From the IMG/VR virus record IMGVR_UViG_3300027715_000010, positions 1 to 64,000 of that record: a DNA stretch of 64,000 bases, one strand, 5' to 3'. How positions within the stretch are numbered: the first letter of the stretch is position 1; each line of letters starts with the position of its first letter. This DNA is from a virus. Taxonomy: Duplodnaviria; Caudoviricetes. Shown piece by piece: positions 4,175 to 37,305 of the stretch. The notes beneath the pieces are model-generated. The model was not told the origin of the DNA and searched no databases. It saw nothing but the letters and a program-made list of their open reading frames with translations. The position numbers and the translations under genes are program-made.

Positions 4175-4558
4175 ATGGATTTCAGTGATGTAAAGACCAA
4201 GTTTAATCTAGATGACACTGTCTACTTGAAAAAAGATGATGCTGTTATAGAAGGTACTATTATAAGCATAAAAGTTGATATTGATGTTTGTAATAGCTTT
4301 ATTGGTGATATGCGTGATATTACAATAATTTATACAGTAAATCTAGGAAACTATAAACTAGAAGTTAAAGAATGTGATAATATGTTATTCTCTAGTTTAG
4401 AAGAAGTTGGTAATCGTGATAAAGCTATTCGTCTAATGTATTTAGAGAATCTAAGGAGTAGTATCATTGAACTTAATAAAAAATATAATAAAGCCTTAGA
4501 AGAAAACAATGAAGAATTGGTACGACTTGAAAAAGAAATAGAAAAATTGAAAGGATAA
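4175..4558 (+). CDS. Hypothetical protein, paralogue family A (beta-barrel-like N-term + coiled coil)
   Basis: TKFNLDDTVY start, EKEIEKLKG end shared with 5124..5501. Confidence 0.7.
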   Translation: MDFSDVKTKFNLDDTVYLKKDDAVIEGTIISIKVDIDVCNSFIGDMRDITIIYTVNLGNYKLEVKECDNMLFSSLEEVGNRDKAIRLMYLENLRSSIIELNKKYNKALEENNEELVRLEKEIEKLKG

Positions 4559-4570
4559 GACTATGGAAAT
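4527..4570 (+). repeat. 44-bp direct repeat, copy 1 (copy 2 at 5470..5513)
   Basis: TTGAAAAAGAAATAGAAAAATTGAAAGGATAAG[A/T]CTATGGAAAT, one mismatch. Confidence 0.9.
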
Positions 4571-4904
4571 TGTAAAAGAAATTAAAAAACAAGTAATTTC
4601 TTATACTTGTGATGGTTGTGGCTGTCCAATTAAGGATAATAACAGAGGACAATTCAACTTTGATATGCGTCATAATACAAGACCTTATGATGATGAAAAT
4701 TCTCTTGGTTTTGAAATGACTATTGCCGGAGACTACTGTAGGACCTGTATGCGGATATTTGTAGAAGCATTTCTTAAGGCAGTTAAAGACTTTCCAGAAA
4801 GATATGATAACGATCGTGATAAAAAAGAAAAAGAATTATTTGAGAAGTCAAAGTCAGATCCAGAAATACAAAAAGCAATAAAAAATGAAGATGATGAGTG
4901 GTAA
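4563..4904 (+). CDS. Hypothetical Zn-binding protein
   Basis: CDGC ... CRTC. Confidence 0.6.
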   Translation: MEIVKEIKKQVISYTCDGCGCPIKDNNRGQFNFDMRHNTRPYDDENSLGFEMTIAGDYCRTCMRIFVEAFLKAVKDFPERYDNDRDKKEKELFEKSKSDPEIQKAIKNEDDEW

Positions 4905-5127
4905 AATGGATATACAAGAAAATAATATAATTAAGTTAGATAATAAAAATGTAAAACCTGGTTATATTAAGTGCATAAAACAAAATGACGACAGTTTGCT
5001 ATGCAGATCTTACTATGGAGAAAGCCAAACTGATAATGCTGGTATCGCAGTAATTGCATTATTTATAGTATTTTTTATTATTACATTGGTATCATTATCA
5101 CTAGCATCTAGACGGAGTAAAGAATGA
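4885..5127 (+). CDS. Hypothetical membrane-anchored protein
   Basis: C-terminal hydrophobic helix. Confidence 0.55.
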   Translation: MKMMSGKMDIQENNIIKLDNKNVKPGYIKCIKQNDDSLLCRSYYGESQTDNAGIAVIALFIVFFIITLVSLSLASRRSKE

Positions 5128-5501
5128 AAACAAAAAGCATTGAAACCAAATATAATCTCGGGGATAAGGTATTCATTAAAACCATTGACGGTGTCAAAGA
5201 AACTATAATTTCTTATATAAATGTTGAAGAAATATCAGAACTTAATAGTGAGCCAAAGAACCGTGTTGAGATACAATATGGCACAGAAGATGGAAAGTAT
5301 TTTTGGGAAGAAGATAAAAAGATATTGGTAGAGAAAAATAAGGAAAAATTAGAAAAACTAATCAAGAAACACCGTAAACAACAACTTGAGAAAGAAAAGA
5401 AACAGATACAAACCAATATAAACAATCATAAAAATGATATTGAGTATGAAAACAAAAGGCTTAAACAAATTGAAAAAGAAATAGAAAAATTGAAAGGATA
5501 A
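5124..5501 (+). CDS. Hypothetical protein, paralogue family A
   Basis: TKYNLGDKVF start, coiled-coil end. Confidence 0.7.
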   Translation: MKTKSIETKYNLGDKVFIKTIDGVKETIISYINVEEISELNSEPKNRVEIQYGTEDGKYFWEEDKKILVEKNKEKLEKLIKKHRKQQLEKEKKQIQTNINNHKNDIEYENKRLKQIEKEIEKLKG

Positions 5502-5513
5502 GTCTATGGAAAT
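5470..5513 (+). repeat. 44-bp direct repeat, copy 2
   Basis: Matches 4527..4570. Confidence 0.9.
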
Positions 5514-5901
5514 AAAAGGAATTACTACAAAACATAACATCGGCGATACTGTATTTTATGCTAATGGCTATGCTAATGAAATTAAGGCAGTTAGTAGCAC
5601 TATCAATAGAATTACTTTTGAACGAGATATCAGTATTAACTCTGTGGGTAAAGAATATAATAATTATAGAGTATGTTATATGCTCACAAGTGGTTATTGG
5701 TTTGAAGAAGATGATGAAAGATTCTTAGTAGAGAAAAATGAAGTTGCCCTTGAAAAACTAATTAAAAAGGATGCTCTTCGTAAATTAAATAGTAAAAAAG
5801 AGCAGTTAGAAGTTAATATAGCAAATCATAAACACTCTATTGAATATGATACTATGATGCTCAAGAATATAAAAAAAGAGATAAAGGACACAAAATGCTA
5901 A
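5506..5901 (+). CDS. Hypothetical protein, paralogue family A
   Basis: TKHNIGDTVF; EED...LVEKN...LEKLIKK shared with 5124..5501. Confidence 0.7.
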   Translation: MEIKGITTKHNIGDTVFYANGYANEIKAVSSTINRITFERDISINSVGKEYNNYRVCYMLTSGYWFEEDDERFLVEKNEVALEKLIKKDALRKLNSKKEQLEVNIANHKHSIEYDTMMLKNIKKEIKDTKC

Positions 5902-6302: not shown

Positions 6303-6364
6303 TTGACTTTTCTTTCTTAGTATGTTATATTCATATCATAACAACAAAGAGGGAGACTACAATG
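6303..6364 (+). promoter_or_regulatory. Early promoter + conserved leader/RBS module
   Basis: TTGACT-N17-TATATT, then AGAGGGAGACTACAATG identical to copies at 15836 and 17745. Confidence 0.85.
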
Positions 6365-6673: not shown

Positions 6674-7510
6674 ATGATTTTAGTAGATTATAGTCAGATA
6701 TTTCATAGCACAGCTTATGCTACAGCCAGAACACCGGAAATCACTCCAGACTTGATACCACATATAGTTTTTAATACTATCCGTAATATCAAAATGAAGT
6801 TTTCGTCCGAAGAATATGGTGAAATTGTTATTTGTTGTGATAGTAAAAAGAACTGGAGAAAGAGCGTATATGAGTATTATAAAGCCAACAGGCAAAAAAG
6901 TCGTGAAGATTCTGGTATGGATTGGAATTATTTATTTAGTGTGTCGGACAGTATCAAACTGGCTCTCAAAGAAAAGTCCCCGTACAAGGTTATAGAAGTA
7001 GAAACCGCAGAAGGTGATGATATTATTGGAACACTTTCTACTACTTTCGGTAAGCACATTATAGTTTCTAATGATAAAGACTTTGGGCAGTTGCTTGGAC
7101 CTAATGTAAAACAATATGCACCGTTAACTTCAGAATTCATTAAAATTGATAATCCAAAAGCTTTTCTAATAGAACATATTATCAAAGGGGATAGCTCAGA
7201 TGGTATTCCAAATATACTTAGTTCCGACAATGTATTCATTATAAAGGAACGTCAAAAGTCCATTACAGCAAAGTTTCTTGCTTCTATTGAAAGTATAGAA
7301 CAATTAGAAAACTGGTGTAAAACCAATAACTTAGAAGCAAACTTTAAGAGAAATCAAAAACTTATTGATTTGTCTTGCATACCTGCGGACATTAGTTTAT
7401 CTATTATGGAAGAATATGGTAAACCAGCCAAAGGCAATAGAACTACTCTAATGGAGTATTTTATGGCAAATGGTATGGTTAAACTATTGGAAGATTTACA
7501 GAACTTTTAG
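6674..7510 (+). CDS. rnh: T4-type RNase H (5'-3' exonuclease)
   Basis: MILVDYSQI, WRK..Y..YKANR, EGDDIIG, SNDKDF.QL, GDSSDGIPNILS. Confidence 0.95.
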   Translation: MILVDYSQIFHSTAYATARTPEITPDLIPHIVFNTIRNIKMKFSSEEYGEIVICCDSKKNWRKSVYEYYKANRQKSREDSGMDWNYLFSVSDSIKLALKEKSPYKVIEVETAEGDDIIGTLSTTFGKHIIVSNDKDFGQLLGPNVKQYAPLTSEFIKIDNPKAFLIEHIIKGDSSDGIPNILSSDNVFIIKERQKSITAKFLASIESIEQLENWCKTNNLEANFKRNQKLIDLSCIPADISLSIMEEYGKPAKGNRTTLMEYFMANGMVKLLEDLQNF

Positions 7511-7524
7511 AAAGGAAAGTTAAA

Positions 7525-7737
7525 ATGAGTATTAATGATGAAAGTGCTAGAATTCTTAGAAAGTTTATTGTTGATGGACAAGAACTAACTGACTATGACA
7601 GAAAGCATTTAAGAACTAACTTTGAAGATATTGAGTATTGTTTAAGTAGTGATATTAAAGCACTACAAACAGAATTACTAAACGCAGAAAATGAGATTAG
7701 TAATCTGCAAAAAGTTATAGATGAAGACGATGACTAA
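7525..7737 (+). CDS. Hypothetical protein
   Basis: ORF with RBS AAGGA. Confidence 0.6.
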   Translation: MSINDESARILRKFIVDGQELTDYDRKHLRTNFEDIEYCLSSDIKALQTELLNAENEISNLQKVIDEDDD

Positions 7738-8455
7738 AACATCATTGGAAATAGCCAATAAAGTTCTAAAAGAACTTGGTAGAGACCCTATCAAGAGTTT
7801 AGATTCTGCCGGCAATGCCCAACTAAAAGGTGTAATTGATAGAGAATATACCTTACTATCTGGACGTGCTTACTGGGTAGAACTAATCAGAGAGAAGATT
7901 ATTAAGCTAGAGCCAAAGTGTTATGTTTATGATATGCCAACGGATTCTCATCAGATATTAGAGTTATCAATTAATGCTAAAAAACTAATTGGACCAGTAA
8001 CTGGGTATAGATACCGTGAGTTAATAGAATCCAATGCAAAACCTGGAACTCCAGTTTACTATATTATAACAAAGACCCATAGAATTAGTATAACACCAGT
8101 TCCAAATAGTAATTATGATATGTTAGTAAAGTATATTGTCAAATCAGATGTTGATTGTAATATGTTGGATACTAATCTATTATACCTTGGATCCTTATGG
8201 AGATTTAAGAAAGACCTAGGATTTGACTGGCAAGATGATTGTAAGAAATACGAGTCTTTAGTGGTAAAAGCAATTAAAGAAAATGAGAGGAAAACTATGT
8301 CGTTAAAAGATGAATTGAATAAATTAGTTACGGATCTTAAAGAAATCTCAGAACTTGAAGTTGGTGATTTAGTTAAGACAAAACTAAAAGACAAAGCAGT
8401 TGAAGATTATAATAAAAGAATTAGAGAACATAATCTTACTATTGGGAGGATATAA
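7721..8455 (+). CDS. Podophage/prophage-type head-tail adaptor (tail tubular A-like) homologue
   Basis: LEIANKVLKELG..PI.S, GTP.YY, PVP...Y, LL.LG.LWRFK..LG.DW......YE pattern; possible internal start at 8297. Confidence 0.55.
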   Translation: MKTMTKTSLEIANKVLKELGRDPIKSLDSAGNAQLKGVIDREYTLLSGRAYWVELIREKIIKLEPKCYVYDMPTDSHQILELSINAKKLIGPVTGYRYRELIESNAKPGTPVYYIITKTHRISITPVPNSNYDMLVKYIVKSDVDCNMLDTNLLYLGSLWRFKKDLGFDWQDDCKKYESLVVKAIKENERKTMSLKDELNKLVTDLKEISELEVGDLVKTKLKDKAVEDYNKRIREHNLTIGRI

Positions 8456-9288
8456 TGAGAAGTCAAGATCTGTATTCTGTTATTGATGGTGAAGGCTTAC
8501 ATAGTGGTATTCATAACATTATATATTTAACCACTGGTAAAGAACAAGGTATCAATTTCTATTACCATTGTGAAGCTACACAGGAGCACGAAGAATTTAA
8601 TATACGTGATTGTAAAGTAGTTAACACCATTGGTAGTTTAGATATCGCTTATAAGGATATCAGAATTAACACTATTGAACATTTACTTGGTGCTTTACAC
8701 TTTCACGGTATAGATAGTATAACCATTGAGATAACTGATAAAGTTACCGAAATACCAATTCTTAATGGTTCTATTAGTGGGTATATTGAAGATGATTTGA
8801 ATATACGTGATGTATTGGGACCTTCAAAATATATAATAATCTTAAAAGATGTTACCATAAATATGGATAACCAGATGGCAAAGTTAAGTGCTCATCATAG
8901 ATTTATTATTGATTATACATTTATGGGTCATAGATATCACGAGACTATTGGTGATAATGCAGTTCTAAATGCTAAGACTTTCGTAAATGTTGATGATATA
9001 CCAAGTCTAATAAAATCTGGTAGATGCCTTGGTGGATCTGGTTCCAATAATACCAATATAGTAGACTTTAAGAATAATAAGATTCTAAGTCCTGGTAAGT
9101 ATAATGAAGATATTATACAAGAGCTTTTATATCATAAAGTTGCAGATGCACTTGGAGACTTGTATATTACTGGATACCCGATTATAGGTAAATATACAGC
9201 TAATAATTCAAACCACACAATAAATGCGATGTTAATGCAAGAACTTATGTCTGATAGTAGTAACTATAAGATTGTAGAGGAAGATTAA
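8455..9288 (+). CDS. lpxC: UDP-3-O-acyl-GlcNAc deacetylase (LpxC) homologue
   Basis: G.GLHSG, TIEHLL.AL...GID, EIPIL.GS, AKTF, LGGS, HKV.D.LGDL...G.PI.G, ..H..N motifs. Confidence 0.88.
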   Translation: MRSQDLYSVIDGEGLHSGIHNIIYLTTGKEQGINFYYHCEATQEHEEFNIRDCKVVNTIGSLDIAYKDIRINTIEHLLGALHFHGIDSITIEITDKVTEIPILNGSISGYIEDDLNIRDVLGPSKYIIILKDVTINMDNQMAKLSAHHRFIIDYTFMGHRYHETIGDNAVLNAKTFVNVDDIPSLIKSGRCLGGSGSNNTNIVDFKNNKILSPGKYNEDIIQELLYHKVADALGDLYITGYPIIGKYTANNSNHTINAMLMQELMSDSSNYKIVEED

Positions 9289-9468
9289 ATGGAAGAAATT
9301 AGAGAAGAACCAAATTATCCACAAGATATTGTAAGAGAACTAAGGGAACTTAATTTTATTTTAAGAACCTTCTTGACTTTTGCATTAGAAAAGGATTATA
9401 AGGGGGAAAGTAAAGCAATGTCCGAAGAGGTCAAAGCTATCGTGAAAAAACTAAACAGAGGGAAGTAA
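9289..9468 (+). CDS. Small hypothetical protein (59 aa)
   Basis: Hand-translated ORF abutting the lpxC stop. Confidence 0.55.
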   Translation: MEEIREEPNYPQDIVRELRELNFILRTFLTFALEKDYKGESKAMSEEVKAIVKKLNRGK

Positions 9469-9471
9469 ATT

Positions 9472-9699
9472 ATGGAAGACCAAAACTTATTAAAATCATA
9501 TTTTGAACGTATAGAATCTTTATCAGAACAAGCAAAGTCTATTCGCTCAGATATCAATGATATTTTCAAAGAAGCAGAATCCAAGGGATTTGATAAAAAG
9601 GTTATGAAACAAGCACTTAAGATTCGTTCTATGAAACCAGAAGATAGAGAGAATCTAGATAGTTTATTAGATACTTACTTGAAAGAGTTGGGTATCTAA
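9472..9699 (+). CDS. gapR: GapR / DUF2312 nucleoid-associated DNA-binding protein
   Basis: L.S..ERIE.L.E....I..DI.DIF.EA...GFD.K.....L.IR........D.LLD.Y...LG. Confidence 0.88.
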   Translation: MEDQNLLKSYFERIESLSEQAKSIRSDINDIFKEAESKGFDKKVMKQALKIRSMKPEDRENLDSLLDTYLKELGI

Positions 9700-9704
9700 T
9701 ACTA

Positions 9705-9746
9705 ACCGGCATAGATTTAATCCTTTCGGTCTATGCCGGTATTTTT
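9705..9746 (+). terminator. Rho-independent terminator
   Basis: ACCGGCATAGA...TCTATGCCGGT + T run. Confidence 0.8.
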
Positions 9747-9753
9747 ATAAATA
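9746..9753 (+). promoter_or_regulatory. Late promoter TATAAATA
   Basis: Consensus upstream of the cell-wall hydrolase. Confidence 0.8.
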
Positions 9754-9786: not shown

Positions 9787-10353
9787 ATGAGACTATTTAC
9801 ACTCTGGAGGATTTTTGTTTTTATAGCTATTATTACGGTGCTAAGCTATATTAAACCGGTGAACGATTACTTGATTTCACCATCATTAAAGTTAACTAGT
9901 AATTTATCTGATAAAATCATACATAGAGCAGAAGCTTCAGTAGTAATGCCGAAGTATGATAGATCTGAATTACTTTGTCTAACCGAGGCAATCTATTATG
10001 AAGCAGGAAATCAAAGTACTGCTGGTAAGATGGCAGTTGCTTCAGTTATTATGAATAGAAAGAATAATAAGAACTTTCCAAATACTATCTGTGGAGTTAT
10101 TAAACAGGGGGAAACAGATGAATACGGGGAAATGGTTCTGAATAAATGCCAGTTTTCTTATAAGTGCGATGGTATTAAAGAAGATATGAAGGATCCAGAA
10201 CTAATTAAACAATGTATGAAAGTAGCAGAATATATGCTCAAGACAGGATCTCAATCAAATGCTTTGTTTTATCACGCTGATTATGTAAAACCAAAATGGT
10301 CTAAAGACTATACTTTGATTAGTCAGATTGGGGACCATTTGTTTTATAAATAG
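9787..10353 (+). CDS. Cell wall hydrolase, SleB/Hydrolase_2 family, N-terminal signal/TM anchor
   Basis: CLTEAIYYEA..Q...GK.AVA.VI.NR....FPNTICGV, CQFS, ALFYHADYV.P.W, IGDHLFY. Confidence 0.92.
   Translation: MRLFTLWRIFVFIAIITVLSYIKPVNDYLISPSLKLTSNLSDKIIHRAEASVVMPKYDRSELLCLTEAIYYEAGNQSTAGKMAVASVIMNRKNNKNFPNTICGVIKQGETDEYGEMVLNKCQFSYKCDGIKEDMKDPELIKQCMKVAEYMLKTGSQSNALFYHADYVKPKWSKDYTLISQIGDHLFYK
10345..10352 (+). promoter_or_regulatory. Late promoter TATAAATA
   Basis: Overlaps the hydrolase stop, precedes the structured hsp20 leader. Confidence 0.7.
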
Positions 10354-15104: not shown

Positions 15105-15752
15105 ATGTTTGTAGCTACCACAATTTCGTTTATCGATTTTCCGGGTCAGGTTTGCCAGGTTTTATATACAAATGGCTGCAACTTCTCGTGTCCTTTTTGC
15201 CACAATCCAGAATTAAAGCATAAACAAAACACCTCGGTAGAAGTTTATAAAGATATCCCTTCCGTATGCATAACTGGAGGCGAGCCAACTATACACGGAA
15301 GTAAACTCGTAGAAGAATGTCGTAGAATTAAGGCTCTTGGTAAACTTATCAAAGTAGACACGAACGGAACCAATCTGGAGTGTATCACGGATTTAATAGA
15401 AGGGTCCGTGGTTGATTATATTGCGATGGATGTAAAGAATCTATGGTCGGAGTATCCAGAAACAACCAGAAGTATGGATCCATCTGTTGTAAAAATGACC
15501 TTTGATTATTTGTGCTCTGTTAATACTATAACTGTAGAATTCAGAACAACCTTAGTAAAGCCATTTCTTACAGTAGAAAGAGTCAAAACCATAGCTGATA
15601 TGATACCACTAGATAAGACTTATTCTGTACAAAACTTCAGACCTCTAAAAGTTCTGGATCCATCTGTCCCTATGGACAACTTTACTTCAGATGAATTAGA
15701 TGAGATCCGTGACTATCTAAAATTAAAGAACCACAAGTATAATATAAGATAA
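15105..15752 (+). CDS. nrdG: Radical SAM anaerobic ribonucleotide reductase activase (NrdG-type)
   Basis: S.IDFPG, GCNFSCPFCHNP, ITGGEPT, K.DTNG, DYIAMDVK, EFRTT. Confidence 0.85.
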   Translation: MFVATTISFIDFPGQVCQVLYTNGCNFSCPFCHNPELKHKQNTSVEVYKDIPSVCITGGEPTIHGSKLVEECRRIKALGKLIKVDTNGTNLECITDLIEGSVVDYIAMDVKNLWSEYPETTRSMDPSVVKMTFDYLCSVNTITVEFRTTLVKPFLTVERVKTIADMIPLDKTYSVQNFRPLKVLDPSVPMDNFTSDELDEIRDYLKLKNHKYNIR

Positions 15753-16492: not shown

Positions 16493-17251
16493 ATGATAAT
16501 TTATGATAAATCTGGTAAATTATTAGCAGAATCTAATAATAAAGATTTTAGTGGTGTAGACTTAAGGGATGCTAATTTAAGTTTTGCAGATCTTAAAGGG
16601 GCAAACTTAAGGAATGCCGACTTAAGGTGGGCAGATTTAAGTAATGCCAACTTAAAGGAAGCAGACCTTCAAGAGGCAAACTTAAGTTATGCTAAGTTAG
16701 ATAAAGCTAATCTTGACCAAGCTTTTCTTTCTAAAGCAAATCTAAGTTACAGTTACTTAGTGGGTGCAAATCTGAAAGATGCTTACATTTGTGAAGCAAA
16801 TCTGCACCACGCTGCTGTAAGAAATGCAGATCTGACCAACGCCAGCTTAAGTAATGCTAATTTGAATTATGCAGACTTTAGTTATGCTAATTTGAGCAAT
16901 ACTAATTTAAGTTATGCCGACTTTAGGAATGCTGAGCTGAACAGAACCAATCTTACACAAGCAAACATAACACATACAGTAGGAAATAGCCAGGAACTTA
17001 TTTCACTCCATTTAGATTGTTATGATATTGCCTTTACTAAAGATACACTGACCATAGATTCTGACCAATACCCTATTAATGATTGGTTTGCTTTTACTGA
17101 TGAACAAATTATGGATATCATAGATATAAAATGGTTTAATAAGTGGAAAGAAACAATTAAAAAAATTATGAAATTAAGTCTTTATATTAAAATAGAAGGA
17201 AGAAGTTATTGGGTTTTACTCAAAAATCTATTGTTAAGAACTTATAAATAA
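16493..17251 (+). CDS. Pentapeptide repeat protein
   Basis: Long A(D/N)Lxx tandem array. Confidence 0.95.
   Translation: MIIYDKSGKLLAESNNKDFSGVDLRDANLSFADLKGANLRNADLRWADLSNANLKEADLQEANLSYAKLDKANLDQAFLSKANLSYSYLVGANLKDAYICEANLHHAAVRNADLTNASLSNANLNYADFSYANLSNTNLSYADFRNAELNRTNLTQANITHTVGNSQELISLHLDCYDIAFTKDTLTIDSDQYPINDWFAFTDEQIMDIIDIKWFNKWKETIKKIMKLSLYIKIEGRSYWVLLKNLLLRTYK
17243..17250 (+). promoter_or_regulatory. Late promoter TATAAATA
   Basis: Upstream of 17279..17599, which ends at a terminator. Confidence 0.55.
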
Positions 17252-25980: not shown

Positions 25981-25988
25981 TATTTATA
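25981..25988 (-). promoter_or_regulatory. Late promoter TATAAATA directly upstream of tRNA-Ser
   Basis: Overlaps the stop of the upstream gene; 5 nt from the tRNA 5' end. Confidence 0.75.
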
Positions 25989-27471
25989 CAAGGTTATAAG
26001 TCCATCTAATTTTACCACAATCCCAAACACGTAAATAACCAAGTTCTAATGCTTTTTGATGCTCAGTCTCACCAGGTTTACAACCTAGAGCTTTTCTAGT
26101 CATTGATTGCTTAGGAAATCTTAATTGCTTAGTTCCTTCTACAAAGTATGAATAATCACGCTTATATTCTACTTCTTTAATAAAACCAAGTTTTTCATAA
26201 ACATTACCCGTAGACCATCTATTATCTGACCAGCTGATTATCTTTTTATACTTAGAACCATATTCTTTTACGAAAGCTTGCAATAATCTAGAAGCACCAC
26301 CAATAACAGTAATACCGTGTACAAATGCTAATCTATTCAATACGATAATAGACTTATCATTGTTTCTATGATGTAAACCAAAAGATATAACACCAATTAG
26401 TTGTCCATTGTATTCTAAACCATAAGCATAAAGGATACTATTTGCTTCACCTTGTATATGATTATCTTCAAAGAACTTATTAGCTTGATACTTTTCAAGT
26501 TGTTTTATTGCACACTTTCTAGCATATACAACTTCTGAAGTACCGACAATAGAAAATAAAAAGTTCTTTACTTGATTTTGTTTAAGTAACCACTCGTCTT
26601 CAAAGATGGTAATTAGTCTATAACCTTTTTCTTGACACTTTTTATACTTTTCCCAATGATAAACATCATTACATCTAGTCAATTCGTGATGCCAGTATAA
26701 ACCACAGTATTCTACAGCTATTTTTTTGTCGTGGTCAACCATATCTAGTTCTTTATTACCAAGTATAGAATAATCACTTTTTACAAAATTACCACCAATA
26801 CTATTAAGATAATTACGAACTTTGTCTTCTGTATATTCTTTGTTTGGATCTCGTTGAATAAATGTAGTACCAAATCTATCTAAACGTGTCTGTAATGAAC
26901 GCTTTACTAATTCTGGGTCTGCCTGTGGATAATAACCATTAACTTCTTTGAAGTCATCAGCGTATTTTTTCATAGCCTTACCAATAACTTCTTTATGTGC
27001 TCTTAATTGTATATCATTTTTTACCAACCACTTCTTTACTGTAGAAGGTGTCGTTTTATAAGTTCTGGCTATATCTGATTGAGATTGTAATTTATTGTGA
27101 TACAAATCATATAATACATCTTTAGAAGGCACCTCTCTGTAATTATATGCGTGTCTATACACTTGTCCGGGGAAGCCGTAGTACTTACACCTGTCCTCCA
27201 CTAACCATACACTGAGACCCGTTTCTTTTGCAATCTGTGAGTATGATTTGGCATCTACTACACGCATCTGATATAAGGCATCTTTTGATATCTTGATTTC
27301 GGTCTTATCAATTCCATCAGAATCTGTGAATAATCCCTCTGGCCTCATTAGAACCTTTCCGTCAATAAGGATTTTTGTGATAGTCTTGCGTGGTATTCCA
27401 TATATCTTATTGAGTTGAGATATGGTCTTGCCGGACTTGTATTCTGCTATTATGTTATCTATGTTTTCCAT
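25984..27471 (-). CDS. Hef-like putative homing endonuclease (HTH repeats + PD-(D/E)XK domain + GNAT-like C-term)
   Basis: Repeated HTH segments; ELD......KIAVEY.GLYWH, RLITIFEDEW, GGASRL, SWSDNRWS.G.VY.KLGF, R.WDCG; start moved to ATG 27471. Confidence 0.75.
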   Translation of the reverse strand: MENIDNIIAEYKSGKTISQLNKIYGIPRKTITKILIDGKVLMRPEGLFTDSDGIDKTEIKISKDALYQMRVVDAKSYSQIAKETGLSVWLVEDRCKYYGFPGQVYRHAYNYREVPSKDVLYDLYHNKLQSQSDIARTYKTTPSTVKKWLVKNDIQLRAHKEVIGKAMKKYADDFKEVNGYYPQADPELVKRSLQTRLDRFGTTFIQRDPNKEYTEDKVRNYLNSIGGNFVKSDYSILGNKELDMVDHDKKIAVEYCGLYWHHELTRCNDVYHWEKYKKCQEKGYRLITIFEDEWLLKQNQVKNFLFSIVGTSEVVYARKCAIKQLEKYQANKFFEDNHIQGEANSILYAYGLEYNGQLIGVISFGLHHRNNDKSIIVLNRLAFVHGITVIGGASRLLQAFVKEYGSKYKKIISWSDNRWSTGNVYEKLGFIKEVEYKRDYSYFVEGTKQLRFPKQSMTRKALGCKPGETEHQKALELGYLRVWDCGKIRWTYNLV

Positions 27472-27478
27472 AGTACTA

Positions 27479-27507
27479 TATATAACACATTTAAGACATA
27501 AAGTCAA
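27479..27507 (-). promoter_or_regulatory. Early/middle sigma70-type promoter, probably leaderless
   Basis: TTGACT-N17-TATATA, 7 nt before ATG 27471, no SD. Confidence 0.7.
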
Positions 27508-27510
27508 GAC

Positions 27511-27545
27511 AAAAAAAGGATCCGATATTTTCATACCGGATCCCC
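27511..27545 (-). terminator. gp23 terminator
   Basis: GGATCCG...CGGATCC + T7. Confidence 0.88.
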
Positions 27546-36150: not shown

Positions 36151-37305
36151 TTAATTTATTTCCGAAAGCAAAGGCTGCATATCACCTTTTTGTAATATAT
36201 TAATAGCTGCATTATAATCAGCATCCATTTCCACACCACACGAAGAGCACTTATAGTACTCCCCCTTTCTATTGGTTTTCATTATAACCCCACAACACGA
36301 GCATCTTTGGCTTGTATATGCTGGAGCAACCTTAGTAACCTGGAAACCTTCCATTTCACTAAGGAAACCTAATTTTTCTAATACTTGTCTATAAGACCAG
36401 TATTGCATTTTATTCATAAGATTTGTAGATAACTTAGTATTATTCTTAACTAATTTAAGATCTTCTACATATAATGTATGTAATTCTGTATCACTTACTA
36501 ATTTCTTGCATAATCTATTAATTTCATCTGTTTTATATTTAAGTAGTTTTTCATATCTTCTACTACCTCTTTGCTTCTTTGCAATTCTATTATAAAGATC
36601 TTTTAATTCTTTGCCATAGAATTCACCTTCAGAAGTACTAATTAACTTATTATAACCTATATCAATTCCTATCTTTTTACCAGTAGTCTTCTTATCTGGT
36701 GTTTTACATTCCCAAAAATAGTTGACATAATACTTACCATTTTTATTTGATAGTCGTACGGTATTCTTTCTTTTACAATTATTATACTTTTTCATATAGT
36801 TATATAATTGTACAGGAAATTTTATAGATTTAGAATATGGGGTTTTAATAAGAAGAAAATTATTTTGTATATTAAAAACTCTAGAATCCAAGCTTATATT
36901 GATATTCTTTAGATTTATTTTAATTCTTTTCTTATAGTTTATATTTAATTCTTTAAAGTGTTTTGAGGTAAACTTATATTGTCTACCATTTTTTAAGAAG
37001 TAACTATATACCTTCTTGTATCTTTTAAAGGTTCTATTCCTAGTATAGTTTATATTAGATCTAACAATTTCAGAAGCTTGCTTGTATATTATCTGCTTCC
37101 AACCAGAATGATGTATAGTATAACCTGGTAGTAAAGGTGAAGATAATAATGATTTTAATGGTATTTTTTCTTCTAATATATCTTGGATATACATTCTTAG
37201 TTGATTCTCATAGTCAATAAAAATACAATCTAGCATTTCTATTTTACCAGTGTTAGATAACATTAGACTATGTTTAGAAGTTCTTATATAAATACCGTCA
37301 GACAA
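36151..37305 (-). mobile_element. tnpB: TnpB RNA-guided endonuclease (IS200/IS605/IS607 family), no transposase in window
   Basis: RuvC-I GIDIG, RuvC-II VEDL, YTSQRC..CG, C..CG, RuvC-III DADYNAAINIL. Confidence 0.92.

What the first reader, a model, noticed from the sequence alone, without database searches (positions are those of the whole stretch)
8455..9288. Phage-encoded LpxC (committed step of lipid A synthesis)
Seen: near full-length homologue keeping the Zn ligands and catalytic residues (EH of TIEH, H and D of HKVAD, final His), but diverged at usually conserved spots (PILNGS for PIMDGS, NSNH for KSGH). Known: LpxC sets the LPS/phospholipid balance and is proteolytically controlled. 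I do not know it as a common phage gene. Inference: the phage manipulates outer-membrane synthesis (envelope integrity, superinfection exclusion, lysis timing) or has repurposed the deacetylase for another UDP-sugar.
Basis: partly seen in the sequence, partly recalled or inferred. Interest (0 to 1): 0.75.

Follow-up and report, generated by a model that had tools for sequence, protein, structure and literature searches.

The report
Divergent LpxC-like deacetylase in phage
An uncultured T4-like phage carries a real but very divergent copy of LpxC, the zinc enzyme that commits bacteria to making lipid A; its catalytic centre is intact but the pocket that normally holds the UDP-sugar is rebuilt, so it may not do the textbook reaction.

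Summary
ORF 8455-9288 (+), 277 aa, is a full-length LpxC-family protein: Pfam PF03331 at 126 bits, and an AlphaFold model (pLDDT 91) that matches E. coli LpxC at TM 0.85. All 13 columns invariant in 92 bacterial LpxCs are kept, including the Zn ligands and the catalytic Glu/His.

It is an integral phage gene. It shares a 1-nt stop/start overlap with the gene before it, abuts the next gene, and has the phage's GC content. The record is a 94-kb T4-like virus (gp23, gp20, sheath, terminase, RNase H).

It is not an ordinary LpxC:
- It scores 126 bits against the TIGR00325 equivalog cut-off of 187.
- It sits on one of the two longest branches in both trees.
- It has the shortest 149-191 segment of 170 sequences, which removes the D160/F161 hairpin tip.
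- It keeps 0 of 4 UDP/hexose-pocket features; 84% of 169 bacterial LpxCs keep at least 3.

The acyl-tunnel insert is still present. One possible relative, P0044, shares the NNxNH motif.

LpxC is rare in phages. None was found in 160 related T4-like loci, and canonical copies occur on about 9 contigs that IMG/VR classes as viral.

I read it as an active amidase, probably expressed early, with changed head-group recognition. Plain LpxC activity is nearly as likely. The scan has noted other LpxC-like families, but not this one.

The parts
6303..6331 (+). Sigma-70-like promoter candidate (TTGACT-17-TATATT with TG) in the gap before the gene string that contains the LpxC homologue
   Evidence: Weak evidence: promoter-like sites are not enriched over shuffles in this AT-rich DNA.
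6674..7510 (+). T4-type RNase H / 5'-3' exonuclease (rnh), same strand and gene string
   Evidence: Pfam PF02739 and PF09293; phrog_107 at 3.6e-57.
7721..8455 (+). SU10-adaptor-like (head-tail adaptor type) protein whose stop overlaps the LpxC start by 1 nt (TAATG). It is not an FGE-fold partner.
   Evidence: phrog_6013 at 5.7e-12. Atlas feature score 0.96 and structure TM 0.71 to PF24175 clusters. Sequence.
8444..8450 (+). Shine-Dalgarno sequence GGGAGGA, 4 nt before the ATG at 8455
   Evidence: Read directly from the sequence.
8455..9288 (+). LpxC-family zinc amidase, 277 aa. The catalytic core is intact and the Insert II helix is present. The D160/F161 hairpin tip is deleted, K143/F194/K262/G264/D105 are replaced, and there is no long C-terminal tail.
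9289..9468 (+). 59-aa ORF that starts on the base after the LpxC stop; no family match
9472..9699 (+). GapR-like DNA-binding protein (DUF2312), last gene of the string; a hint to the host
   Evidence: PF10073 at 1.4e-20. Of the 14 control genomes, only Caulobacter matches. Homologues occur in 102 phage records, mostly phages of Alphaproteobacteria.
9706..9745 (+). Terminator-like hairpin: a perfect 10-bp stem (CCGGCATAGA / TCTATGCCGG) followed by a T-run. It closes the LpxC-containing unit.
9746..9753 (+). TATAAATA, the T4-type late-promoter motif, 34 nt before the hydrolase gene. There is no such motif on the + strand between 2233 and 9746.
9787..10353 (+). SleB-type cell-wall hydrolase with a hydrophobic N-terminus (probable endolysin), in a separate late unit
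   Evidence: PF07486 at 1.7e-22; phrog_938 endolysin.

Best explanation
The gene encodes a folded, catalytically competent zinc amidase of the LpxC family. It is a stable part of a T4-like phage genome whose host is probably a low-GC alphaproteobacterium.

It is probably made before the late genes, from a string that also holds RNase H and a GapR-like protein. It keeps the whole chemical machinery: the Zn ligands, the Glu/His acid-base pair, and Thr191/Lys239/Asp246/His19. It also keeps the Insert II element that forms the fatty-acyl tunnel. The part of the pocket that holds the UDP and hexose of UDP-3-O-acyl-GlcNAc has been rebuilt.

My reading is that it still removes an N-acetyl (or short N-acyl) group from a substrate that carries a lipid chain. 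It would recognise the head group differently from host LpxC, so it is a derived enzyme rather than a plain duplicate of the host enzyme. It also lacks the long C-terminal tail through which E. coli-type LpxC is handed to FtsH, so host proteolytic control probably does not apply.

Shown here: family, fold, residues, phage setting, rarity. Inferred: activity, substrate change, timing, host.
For: Family and fold:
- PF03331 at 126 bits over the full length.
- Model pLDDT 91.4; TMq 0.85 to E. coli LpxC.

Catalytic set:
- All 13 invariant columns of 92 bacterial LpxCs are kept.
- They map to H19, E78, H79, T191, H238, K239, D242, D246 and H265.

Acyl tunnel:
- An Insert II helix is predicted at 179-187.
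- M195 becomes V and I198 stays I. V217 probably corresponds to V203, by my own realignment to the predicted strand 201-204.

Rebuilt pocket (residue roles from the review PMC10254716):
- K143 to Q; D160/F161 deleted; F194 to N; K262 to N.
- The segment P149..T191 is 28 residues, against 32-47 (median 40) in 169 bacterial LpxCs.
- 0 of 4 pocket features are kept. 142 of 169 keep at least 3, and the only other sequence with 0 is P0044.

Not an equivalog:
- TIGR00325 gives 126 bits against a cut-off of 187.
- Nine LpxCs on contigs that IMG/VR classes as viral score 227-385.

Divergence:
- End branch 7.0 against a median of 0.31, and 2.29 against 0.73.
- No relative above 37% identity among 1.84 billion representatives.

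A derived form that persists:
- P0044 (34-37% identical) shares the NNxNH motif, seen in only 2 of the 150 best representatives.
- It also shares the short hairpin and the R190K change.
- It lies beside ORFs that match phage protein families.

Phage gene:
- TAATG overlap with the upstream gene, a strong RBS, and the next ORF abutting.
- GC 30.8% against 33.3% for the window.
- The same protein is recorded on 2 contigs, the longer 127 kb.
Against: - No assay, so activity is inferred from conserved residues only.
- K143 and K262 are only moderately conserved in true LpxCs (K/R in 45 and 70 of 92). Their loss alone does not exclude the normal substrate.
- By my recollection of the LpxC enzymology (not checked here), the acyl chain rather than UDP gives most of the substrate affinity. 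A weakened UDP pocket might therefore be tolerated.
- I could not inspect model coordinates, so compensating basic residues cannot be excluded.
- Alignment around residues 196-203 is uncertain (pLDDT about 80).
- Kinship with P0044 rests on a few motifs and a branch carrying a long-branch/AT-composition warning. A control count of shared rare residues did not single P0044 out.
- No alternative substrate can be named.
Confidence: 0.5

Rival explanations
1. It is a plain auxiliary metabolic gene. The protein carries out the normal LpxC reaction on the host's UDP-3-O-acyl-GlcNAc and is free of host proteolytic control. It keeps or raises lipid A flux after host gene expression is shut off, much as cyanophages replace the short-lived D1 protein. 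Alternatively, it drains hydroxyacyl-ACP away from phospholipid synthesis.
For: - The full catalytic set and F192 are kept, and Insert II is present.
- This is the only reaction known for the family.
- Canonical LpxCs that pass the equivalog cut-off sit on other large viral contigs. At least one of these (the contig of L013) also has a T4-type gp23, so selection for real LpxC activity in phages is plausible.
- LpxC is the tightly controlled, FtsH-degraded step, and its excess is harmful to E. coli (PMC1838920).
- The phage protein has only 23 residues after the last catalytic His, against a median of 40.
Against: - It fails the TIGR00325 cut-off by 61 bits.
- It keeps 0 of 4 UDP/hexose-pocket features, and its hairpin is shorter than in all 169 bacterial LpxCs.
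- It has an extreme branch length.
- A likely host-type LpxC (Pelagibacteraceae) is canonical, so the odd features are not inherited from such a host.
Confidence: 0.35
2. It is a non-catalytic or decaying copy. The fold would be used only as a binder, for example a decoy for the host factors that hand LpxC to its protease. Or the gene is drifting after a transfer.
For: - A very long branch, and many replacements at positions that are usually conserved: 17 of 44 columns with at least 80% conservation.
- It is a singleton in the databases.
- A LapB-LpxC complex exists in PDB (8v24, among the hits), so LpxC does have a defined binding partner.
Against: - Every one of the 13 invariant catalytic and structural residues is retained, which drift would not preserve at about 30% identity.
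- The reading frame is intact, with a strong RBS and translational coupling.
- The fold is predicted with confidence.
Confidence: 0.12
3. It is an assembly chimera or host contamination, and the LpxC gene is bacterial DNA joined to phage DNA by mistake.
For: The record is a metagenome assembly, and I could not check reads.
Against: - The gene overlaps or abuts phage genes on both sides with no spacer.
- It has the phage's GC content.
- It has no bacterial relative above 37% identity.
- It is recorded on two contigs from different sources.
Confidence: 0.02

Closest known systems
LpxC, UDP-3-O-acyl-N-acetylglucosamine deacetylase (EC 3.5.1.108; PF03331, TIGR00325; E. coli structure 4MDT)
   Same: Same two-domain fold (TMq 0.85). 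Same Zn ligands and catalytic residues. The Insert II helix is present. Similar length to short LpxCs such as the Aquifex enzyme.
   Different: About 29% identity. Below the equivalog cut-off. The hairpin carrying D160/F161 is trimmed. K143, F194, K262, G264 and D105 are replaced. It has no long C-terminal tail, no lipid A gene neighbours, and it is encoded by a phage.
Canonical LpxC genes on large IMG/VR viral contigs (L003-L013, including the L010/L011/L013 clade; the contig of L013 also has T4-type gp23)
   Same: LpxC-family genes carried on contigs classed as viral. Several are short forms without a C-terminal tail, in low-GC large genomes.
   Different: Those score 227-385 bits on TIGR00325 and keep 2-4 of the 4 pocket features. 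They are 22-33% identical to the window protein and do not group with it. I verified viral neighbours for only some of them.
LpxC-like ORF of Vibrio phages K566/K567 (VPHK566_0314, annotated hypothetical)
   Same: The other isolated T4-like phages with an LpxC-family gene. It also fails the equivalog cut-off (115 bits) and also sits on a very long branch.
   Different: 24-28% identity. It is a different kind of remodelling: much of the segment after T191 is lost, but F161 and K262 are kept. The pairing of the two in tree 1 is a flagged long-branch join.
P0044 cluster (272 aa; JGI contig Ga0172382_10127922 = L260, 23% GC)
   Same: The best candidate relative. It is 34-37% identical, shares NNxNH in place of YKSGH, the shortened hairpin and R190K, and also keeps 0 of 4 pocket features. 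Its neighbouring ORFs match phrog_5189 and phrog_4427.
   Different: It keeps D105, and it is known only from contigs of 3.4 kb or less. Kinship is not secure: there is a long-branch and composition warning, and the control did not single it out.
Phage lambda CIII (FtsH inhibitor)
   Same: A phage product that disturbs the control of LpxC levels and so the LPS/phospholipid balance (PMC1838920).
   Different: It is unrelated in sequence and mechanism. It acts on the protease and is not an LpxC homologue.
LpxC-like families of Patescibacteria and archaea noted earlier in this scan (e1-1268755, e1-3953341, e1-2929075)
   Same: An intact Zn/catalytic site together with loss of UDP-binding residues, read there as a change of substrate.
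   Different: Those occur in organisms without lipid A, and some lack the acyl tunnel or have an FGE-fold partner. Here the tunnel insert is kept, the upstream partner is an adaptor-like protein rather than FGE, and the likely host makes lipid A. I did not re-test those notes.

Membership tests
LpxC family (Pfam PF03331) | Profile match above the gathering score over the full domain | tested here: met
   126.2 bits against a cut-off of 27; residues 10-265 match model positions 10-267 of 268.
LpxC family (Pfam PF03331) | Two-domain beta-alpha-alpha-beta LpxC fold | tested here: met
   Model pLDDT 91.4 and pTM 0.90. Foldseek E 6e-26, TMq 0.81-0.85 to P. aeruginosa and E. coli LpxC.
LpxC family (Pfam PF03331) | Zn ligands His79, His238, Asp242 (E. 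coli numbering) | tested here: met
   H76, H227 and D231, in columns invariant across 92 relatives.
LpxC family (Pfam PF03331) | Catalytic Glu78 and His265, with Thr191, Lys239, Asp246 and His19 | tested here: met
   E75, H254, T175, K228, D235 and H16.
LpxC equivalog, EC 3.5.1.108 (NCBIfam TIGR00325) | Score above the curated equivalog cut-off | tested here: not met
   125.9 bits against 187.25. Nine LpxCs on contigs classed as viral pass with 227-385 bits.
LpxC equivalog, EC 3.5.1.108 (NCBIfam TIGR00325) | UDP/hexose pocket: Lys143, Asp160, Phe161, Phe194, Lys262 | tested here: not met
   Q140, deletion, deletion, N178, N251. 0 of 4 features are kept, against at least 3 in 142 of 169 bacterial LpxCs. 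The 149-191 segment is 28 residues, against 32-47.
LpxC equivalog, EC 3.5.1.108 (NCBIfam TIGR00325) | Insert II hydrophobic acyl tunnel (Met195, Ile198, Phe212, Val217) | tested here: inconclusive
   A helix at 179-187 and a strand at 201-204 are predicted. V179 and I182 are hydrophobic and F212 becomes G196. V217 maps to N201 or V203 depending on the alignment. Coordinates could not be inspected.
LpxC equivalog, EC 3.5.1.108 (NCBIfam TIGR00325) | Deacetylation of UDP-3-O-acyl-GlcNAc | not testable with these tools
   Needs an enzyme assay or complementation.
LpxC equivalog, EC 3.5.1.108 (NCBIfam TIGR00325) | Genomic company of lipid A or cell-division genes (lpxA/lpxD/fabZ, ftsZ) | tested here: not met
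   No Hexapep, Acetyltransf_11, FabA/FabZ or PagP match in the 94-kb record. The neighbours are phage genes. The record is only about 52% of the genome.
Phage auxiliary (host-derived) gene | A homologue of a cellular metabolic enzyme embedded between phage genes on a viral genome | tested here: met
   T4-type core genes are in the same record. The gene has a 1-nt overlap upstream and an abutting ORF downstream, and its GC matches the phage.

The most novel reading that the evidence does not exclude
The window protein, perhaps together with the P0044 group, is a phage-borne offshoot of LpxC. It has kept the zinc chemistry and the lipid tunnel but has evolved a new head-group pocket. It would then catalyse a second, undescribed reaction for this fold, on a host envelope lipid or lipid-linked amino-sugar other than UDP-3-O-acyl-GlcNAc, and the phage would use it early in infection to alter the host envelope.
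Probability: 0.35. Interest if true: 0.75.

Novelty: new variant of a known kind. Interest (0 to 1): 0.55.

Why it matters
LpxC is the committed and most tightly controlled step of lipid A synthesis, and a major antibiotic target. Only one reaction is known for its fold.

A phage copy with intact chemistry would be informative either way:
- If it does the normal reaction, it is a natural example of a virus overriding outer-membrane homeostasis with an enzyme that escapes host proteolysis.
- If the rebuilt pocket means a new substrate, it is an entry point to a new activity of the fold.

Both cases can be tested directly with standard complementation and deacetylase assays. The survey here also shows that LpxC genes recur, rarely, on large phage genomes. 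I found no paper describing this in the library I could search.

Tried and rejected
1. FGE-fold partner. An earlier scan note describes FGE/LpxC-like gene pairs with an ATGA overlap. Here the overlapping upstream gene is an SU10-adaptor-like protein, not FGE.

2. Lysis-cassette link. A SleB-type hydrolase lies 500 bp downstream, and contig L004 has a 42%-identical hydrolase, a phage lysozyme and a canonical LpxC. However, a terminator-like hairpin and a late-promoter motif separate the units here. None of 80 loci with the homologous hydrolase has LpxC. I dropped the link as unsupported.

3. A lipid A module in Vibrio phage K566. The neighbouring gene annotated PagP has no Pfam match at E 0.001 or better.

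4. Donor or host lineage from phylogeny. Unresolved. The best bacterial matches are 33% identical or less and are spread over Alpha-, Beta-, Gamma- and Epsilonproteobacteria. The grouping near a Pelagibacteraceae LpxC (SH-aLRT 82-87) carries long-branch and composition warnings.

5. Selection analysis (dN/dS). Not possible, because no close variant exists in IMG/VR, JGI metagenomes or the protein collections.

6. Count of rare residues shared with P0044 as a test of kinship. P0044's count of 9 falls within the range seen for other AT-rich sequences: median 4, 95th percentile 10, maximum 17. Only the active-site motif and the hairpin length remain as arguments.

I therefore could not fetch the 127-kb second contig or the contexts of P0002, P0038 and P0044, apart from L260.

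8. Literature. Four searches found no report of a phage-encoded LpxC. The library lacks most subscription journals.
Full report
**Observation.** ORF 8455-9288 on the + strand encodes 277 aa.
- It matches Pfam LpxC (PF03331) over the whole domain at E 2.3e-36 and 126 bits.
- It has no PHROG family.
- phmmer against all PDB chains returns only LpxC, with E about 1e-21 and about 30% identity.
- An AlphaFold2 model built on an alignment of 92 bacterial relatives (A1) has mean pLDDT 91.4 and pTM 0.90.
- Foldseek against PDB returns LpxC structures only, with TMq 0.81-0.85, including the E. coli product complex 4mdt_A.

**Is it a phage gene?** Yes.
- The window is the first 64 kb of a 94,378-b IMG/VR virus record, estimated about 52% complete.
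- The record carries T4-type gp23, scaffold, gp20 portal, tail sheath and large terminase genes. It also carries RNase H, Hsp20, a DenV-like glycosylase and a SleB-type hydrolase.
- Its gp23 is at most 48-49% identical to that of any isolated phage, so this is a deep, uncultured T4-like lineage.
- The LpxC start ATG overlaps the stop of the upstream gene by one base (TAATG) and is preceded by GGGAGGA. The next ORF starts on the base after the LpxC stop.
- The gene's GC is 30.8%, against 33.3% for the window.
- The identical protein is on record from two contigs, the longer 127 kb.

**Anatomy of the unit.**
- The gene string on the + strand runs: orf80, rnh (6674), orf70, an SU10-adaptor-like gene (7721), LpxC, orf59, and a GapR-like gene (9472; PF10073).
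- It ends at a perfect 10-bp hairpin with a T-run (9706-9745).
- Directly after that comes TATAAATA, the T4 late-promoter motif (9746), and then the hydrolase gene (9787).
- There is no such motif on the + strand between 2233 and 9746.
- A sigma-70-like site lies at 6303-6331, but such sites are not enriched over shuffles.

I infer, but have not shown, that LpxC is transcribed with the early/middle genes and not with the lysis gene.

**How ordinary is the protein?** All 13 invariant columns of the 92 relatives are kept. Using Salmonella LpxC (locus L016) for E. coli numbering, these include H19, E78, H79, T191, H238, K239, D242, D246 and H265. Several lines nevertheless set the protein apart.
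- It scores 125.9 bits on the NCBIfam equivalog model TIGR00325, whose cut-off is 187.25.
- 17 of 44 columns that are at least 80% conserved in relatives are changed.
- The review PMC10254716 lists the residues that hold the reaction product in E. coli LpxC:
  - phosphates: K143, K239, K262, H265;
  - uracil: D160, F161, K262;
  - hexose: F161, F194, and a residue the review prints as Phe162 (F192 by my reading);
  - acyl tunnel: M195, I198, F212, V217.
- In the phage protein K143 is Q, K262 is N and F194 is N. The hairpin tip carrying D160/F161 is missing.
- In an alignment of 169 bacterial LpxCs, the segment between P149 and T191 is 32-47 residues (median 40). Here it is 28, the shortest of all.
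- Counting four features (K/R143, aromatic 161, hydrophobic 194, K/R262), 142 of 169 keep at least three. Only one bacterial-set sequence (P0044) keeps none, and the phage protein keeps none.
- Insert II is present, with a helix at 179-187 and a strand at 201-204. Hydrophobic residues sit at the M195 and I198 positions. The V217 position is probably hydrophobic too, but the alignment there is uncertain.
- The tail after the last catalytic His is 23 residues, against a median of 40. The E. coli-type C-terminal degradation tail is therefore absent. Its role as an FtsH signal is from my own knowledge of the E. coli literature. The general FtsH control of LpxC is stated in PMC1838920.

**Relatives.**
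- A word-indexed search of 5.8 billion proteins found only the protein itself.
- A full phmmer scan of 1.84 billion representatives found 2,402 LpxC-family hits, but none above 37% identity.
- The best named matches are scattered across Neisseria, Acetobacteraceae and others. The 80 best GTDB genome matches are all 33% identical or less, across several proteobacterial classes.
- In a tree of 90 sequences the protein has an end branch of 7.0 against a median of 0.31, with unresolved placement.
- In a second tree of 91 sequences the branch is 2.29 against 0.73. There the protein groups with P0038 and P0044/P0176 (SH-aLRT 87), next to a Pelagibacteraceae LpxC (82). The program warns of long-branch and composition effects.
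- The Pelagibacteraceae enzyme itself is canonical, with 3 of 4 features and a 40-residue segment. The odd features are therefore not inherited from such a host.

**P0044, a possible relative.**
- P0044 (272 aa) is 34% identical by BLASTP and 37% in alignment.
- Among the 150 best representatives, only P0044 and the query have NNxNH in place of the usual K/R-x-G-H before the catalytic His.
- It also has the second-shortest hairpin segment and the R190K change.
- Its JGI contig (L260, 2.2 kb, 23% GC) continues with small same-strand ORFs. Two of these match phrog_5189 (2.5e-14) and phrog_4427 (2.9e-4).
- This hints at a small, probably virus-borne subgroup in which the derived pocket is maintained.
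- The evidence is thin, however. A control count of shared rare residues did not single P0044 out.

**How common is LpxC in phages?**
- Among 50,697 phage records, the hits that look like genuine phage are Vibrio phages K566/K567 and two unannotated faecal contigs. The other three hits are on bacterial-looking records: a Salmonella contig and two 'Acinetobacter phage MD-2021a' contigs.
- The K566 homologue also fails the equivalog cut-off, at 115 bits. The PagP label of its neighbour is not supported by Pfam.
- A motif scan of IMG/VR (2.9 million contigs) gave 13 loci. This is a lower bound, since the pattern used would miss the window's own HKVAD.
- Nine of the ten proteins tested pass TIGR00325 with 227-385 bits.
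- Some of these contigs have clear phage neighbours:
  - L013: a T4-type topoisomerase, plus a gp23 on the same contig.
  - L011: an RNA ligase.
  - L004: a SleB-type hydrolase and a phage lysozyme.
- Others look cellular or are classed as provirus. L012 has a TctA transporter next to LpxC.
- CheckV completeness of 9-36% for most of these contigs implies large genomes.
- None of 80 IMG/VR loci with the homologous hydrolase has an LpxC homologue. The same holds for 80 loci with the best RNase H homologues, together over 0.8 Mb of related T4-like DNA.
- The 94-kb record has no LpxA/LpxD-type hexapeptide protein, no FabZ and no PagP.

**Host.** The host is unknown. GapR-like proteins match only Caulobacter among the 14 control genomes. 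Of 102 phage records with a homologue, most are phages of Alphaproteobacteria, such as Rhizobium, Caulobacter, Rhodobacter, Ruegeria and Agrobacterium. Together with 33% GC, this points to a low-GC alphaproteobacterium. This is an inference, not a finding.

**Interpretation.** The fold, the catalytic residues and the phage location are shown. That the protein is an active amidase is a strong inference, because at about 30% identity drift would not spare all 13 invariant residues.

What it acts on is open. Two sets of observations pull in opposite directions:
- For a changed substrate: the loss of every non-catalytic contact to UDP and hexose, a hairpin shorter than in all 169 bacterial LpxCs, failure of the equivalog threshold that other viral LpxCs pass, and the extreme branch. 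These favour a derived enzyme with changed head-group recognition (0.5).
- For the normal substrate: the retained tunnel, K239, F192 and T191, and the fact that no other reaction is known for this family. These keep the plain-LpxC reading close behind (0.35).

A non-catalytic decoy or a decaying gene (0.12) and an assembly artefact (0.02) are unlikely.

**Novelty.** I found no paper on phage-encoded LpxC in the searchable library. The nearest known phage link is indirect: lambda CIII inhibits FtsH, the protease that controls LpxC. Earlier notes of this scan describe LpxC-like families with lost UDP contacts in Patescibacteria and archaea. Those are on other DNA, and I did not re-test them. I file this as a new variant of a known kind, with moderate interest.

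Noticed in passing
window 36151-37305 (-): An intact-looking TnpB (Cas12f1-like TNB domain plus OrfB_IS605) sits between the tail sheath and large terminase genes of the phage. No TnpA was seen nearby.
   Followed up: no
window 9472-9699 (+): A GapR-like (DUF2312) nucleoid protein gene lies two genes after LpxC. Homologues in phage records are found mostly in phages of Alphaproteobacteria. This is a useful hint to the host of this uncultured T4-like phage.
   Followed up: partly
window 7721-8455 (+): A head-tail adaptor-like gene (SU10 adaptor, PF24175-type) lies among early-type genes and is translationally coupled to LpxC. Its role there is unexplained.
   Followed up: partly
window 25984-27534 (-): A 516-aa protein has several HTH motifs and a weak Mom-family match (PF25680, E 1e-4). 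A homologue lies near the LpxC genes of viral contigs L006/L007.
   Followed up: no
window 15105-15752 and 16493-17251 (+): A radical SAM protein and a pentapeptide-repeat protein lie in the same + strand gene block as dUTPase.
   Followed up: no
L002 (Vibrio phage K566, OZ196521.1) 4346-5612: The K566/K567 LpxC-like ORF is annotated as hypothetical. Its upstream neighbour is annotated PagP but has no Pfam match at E 0.001 or better. In one tree the K566 protein pairs weakly with a second, accessory LpxC found in many Vibrio genomes (P0026 cluster).
   Followed up: partly
L010, L011, L013 (IMG/VR contigs, 30-34% GC): Three viral contigs carry short (263-273 aa) LpxCs that form their own clade (SH-aLRT 99). 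The two tested (L010, L011) pass the equivalog cut-off. The contig of L013 also has T4-type gp23 and topoisomerase II genes. This may be a lineage of canonical LpxC in large phages.
   Followed up: partly
L004 (IMGVR_UViG_3300017728_004723, 5.2 kb): A small viral contig carries a SleB-type hydrolase (42% identical to the window's), a phage lysozyme and a canonical 306-aa LpxC within 5 kb.
   Followed up: partly
phage records MT836264.1 and MT837229.1 (human faecal contigs): Two unannotated 'Bacteriophage sp.' contigs encode LpxC-family proteins that are 24-27% identical to the window protein over more than 90% of its length.
   Followed up: no
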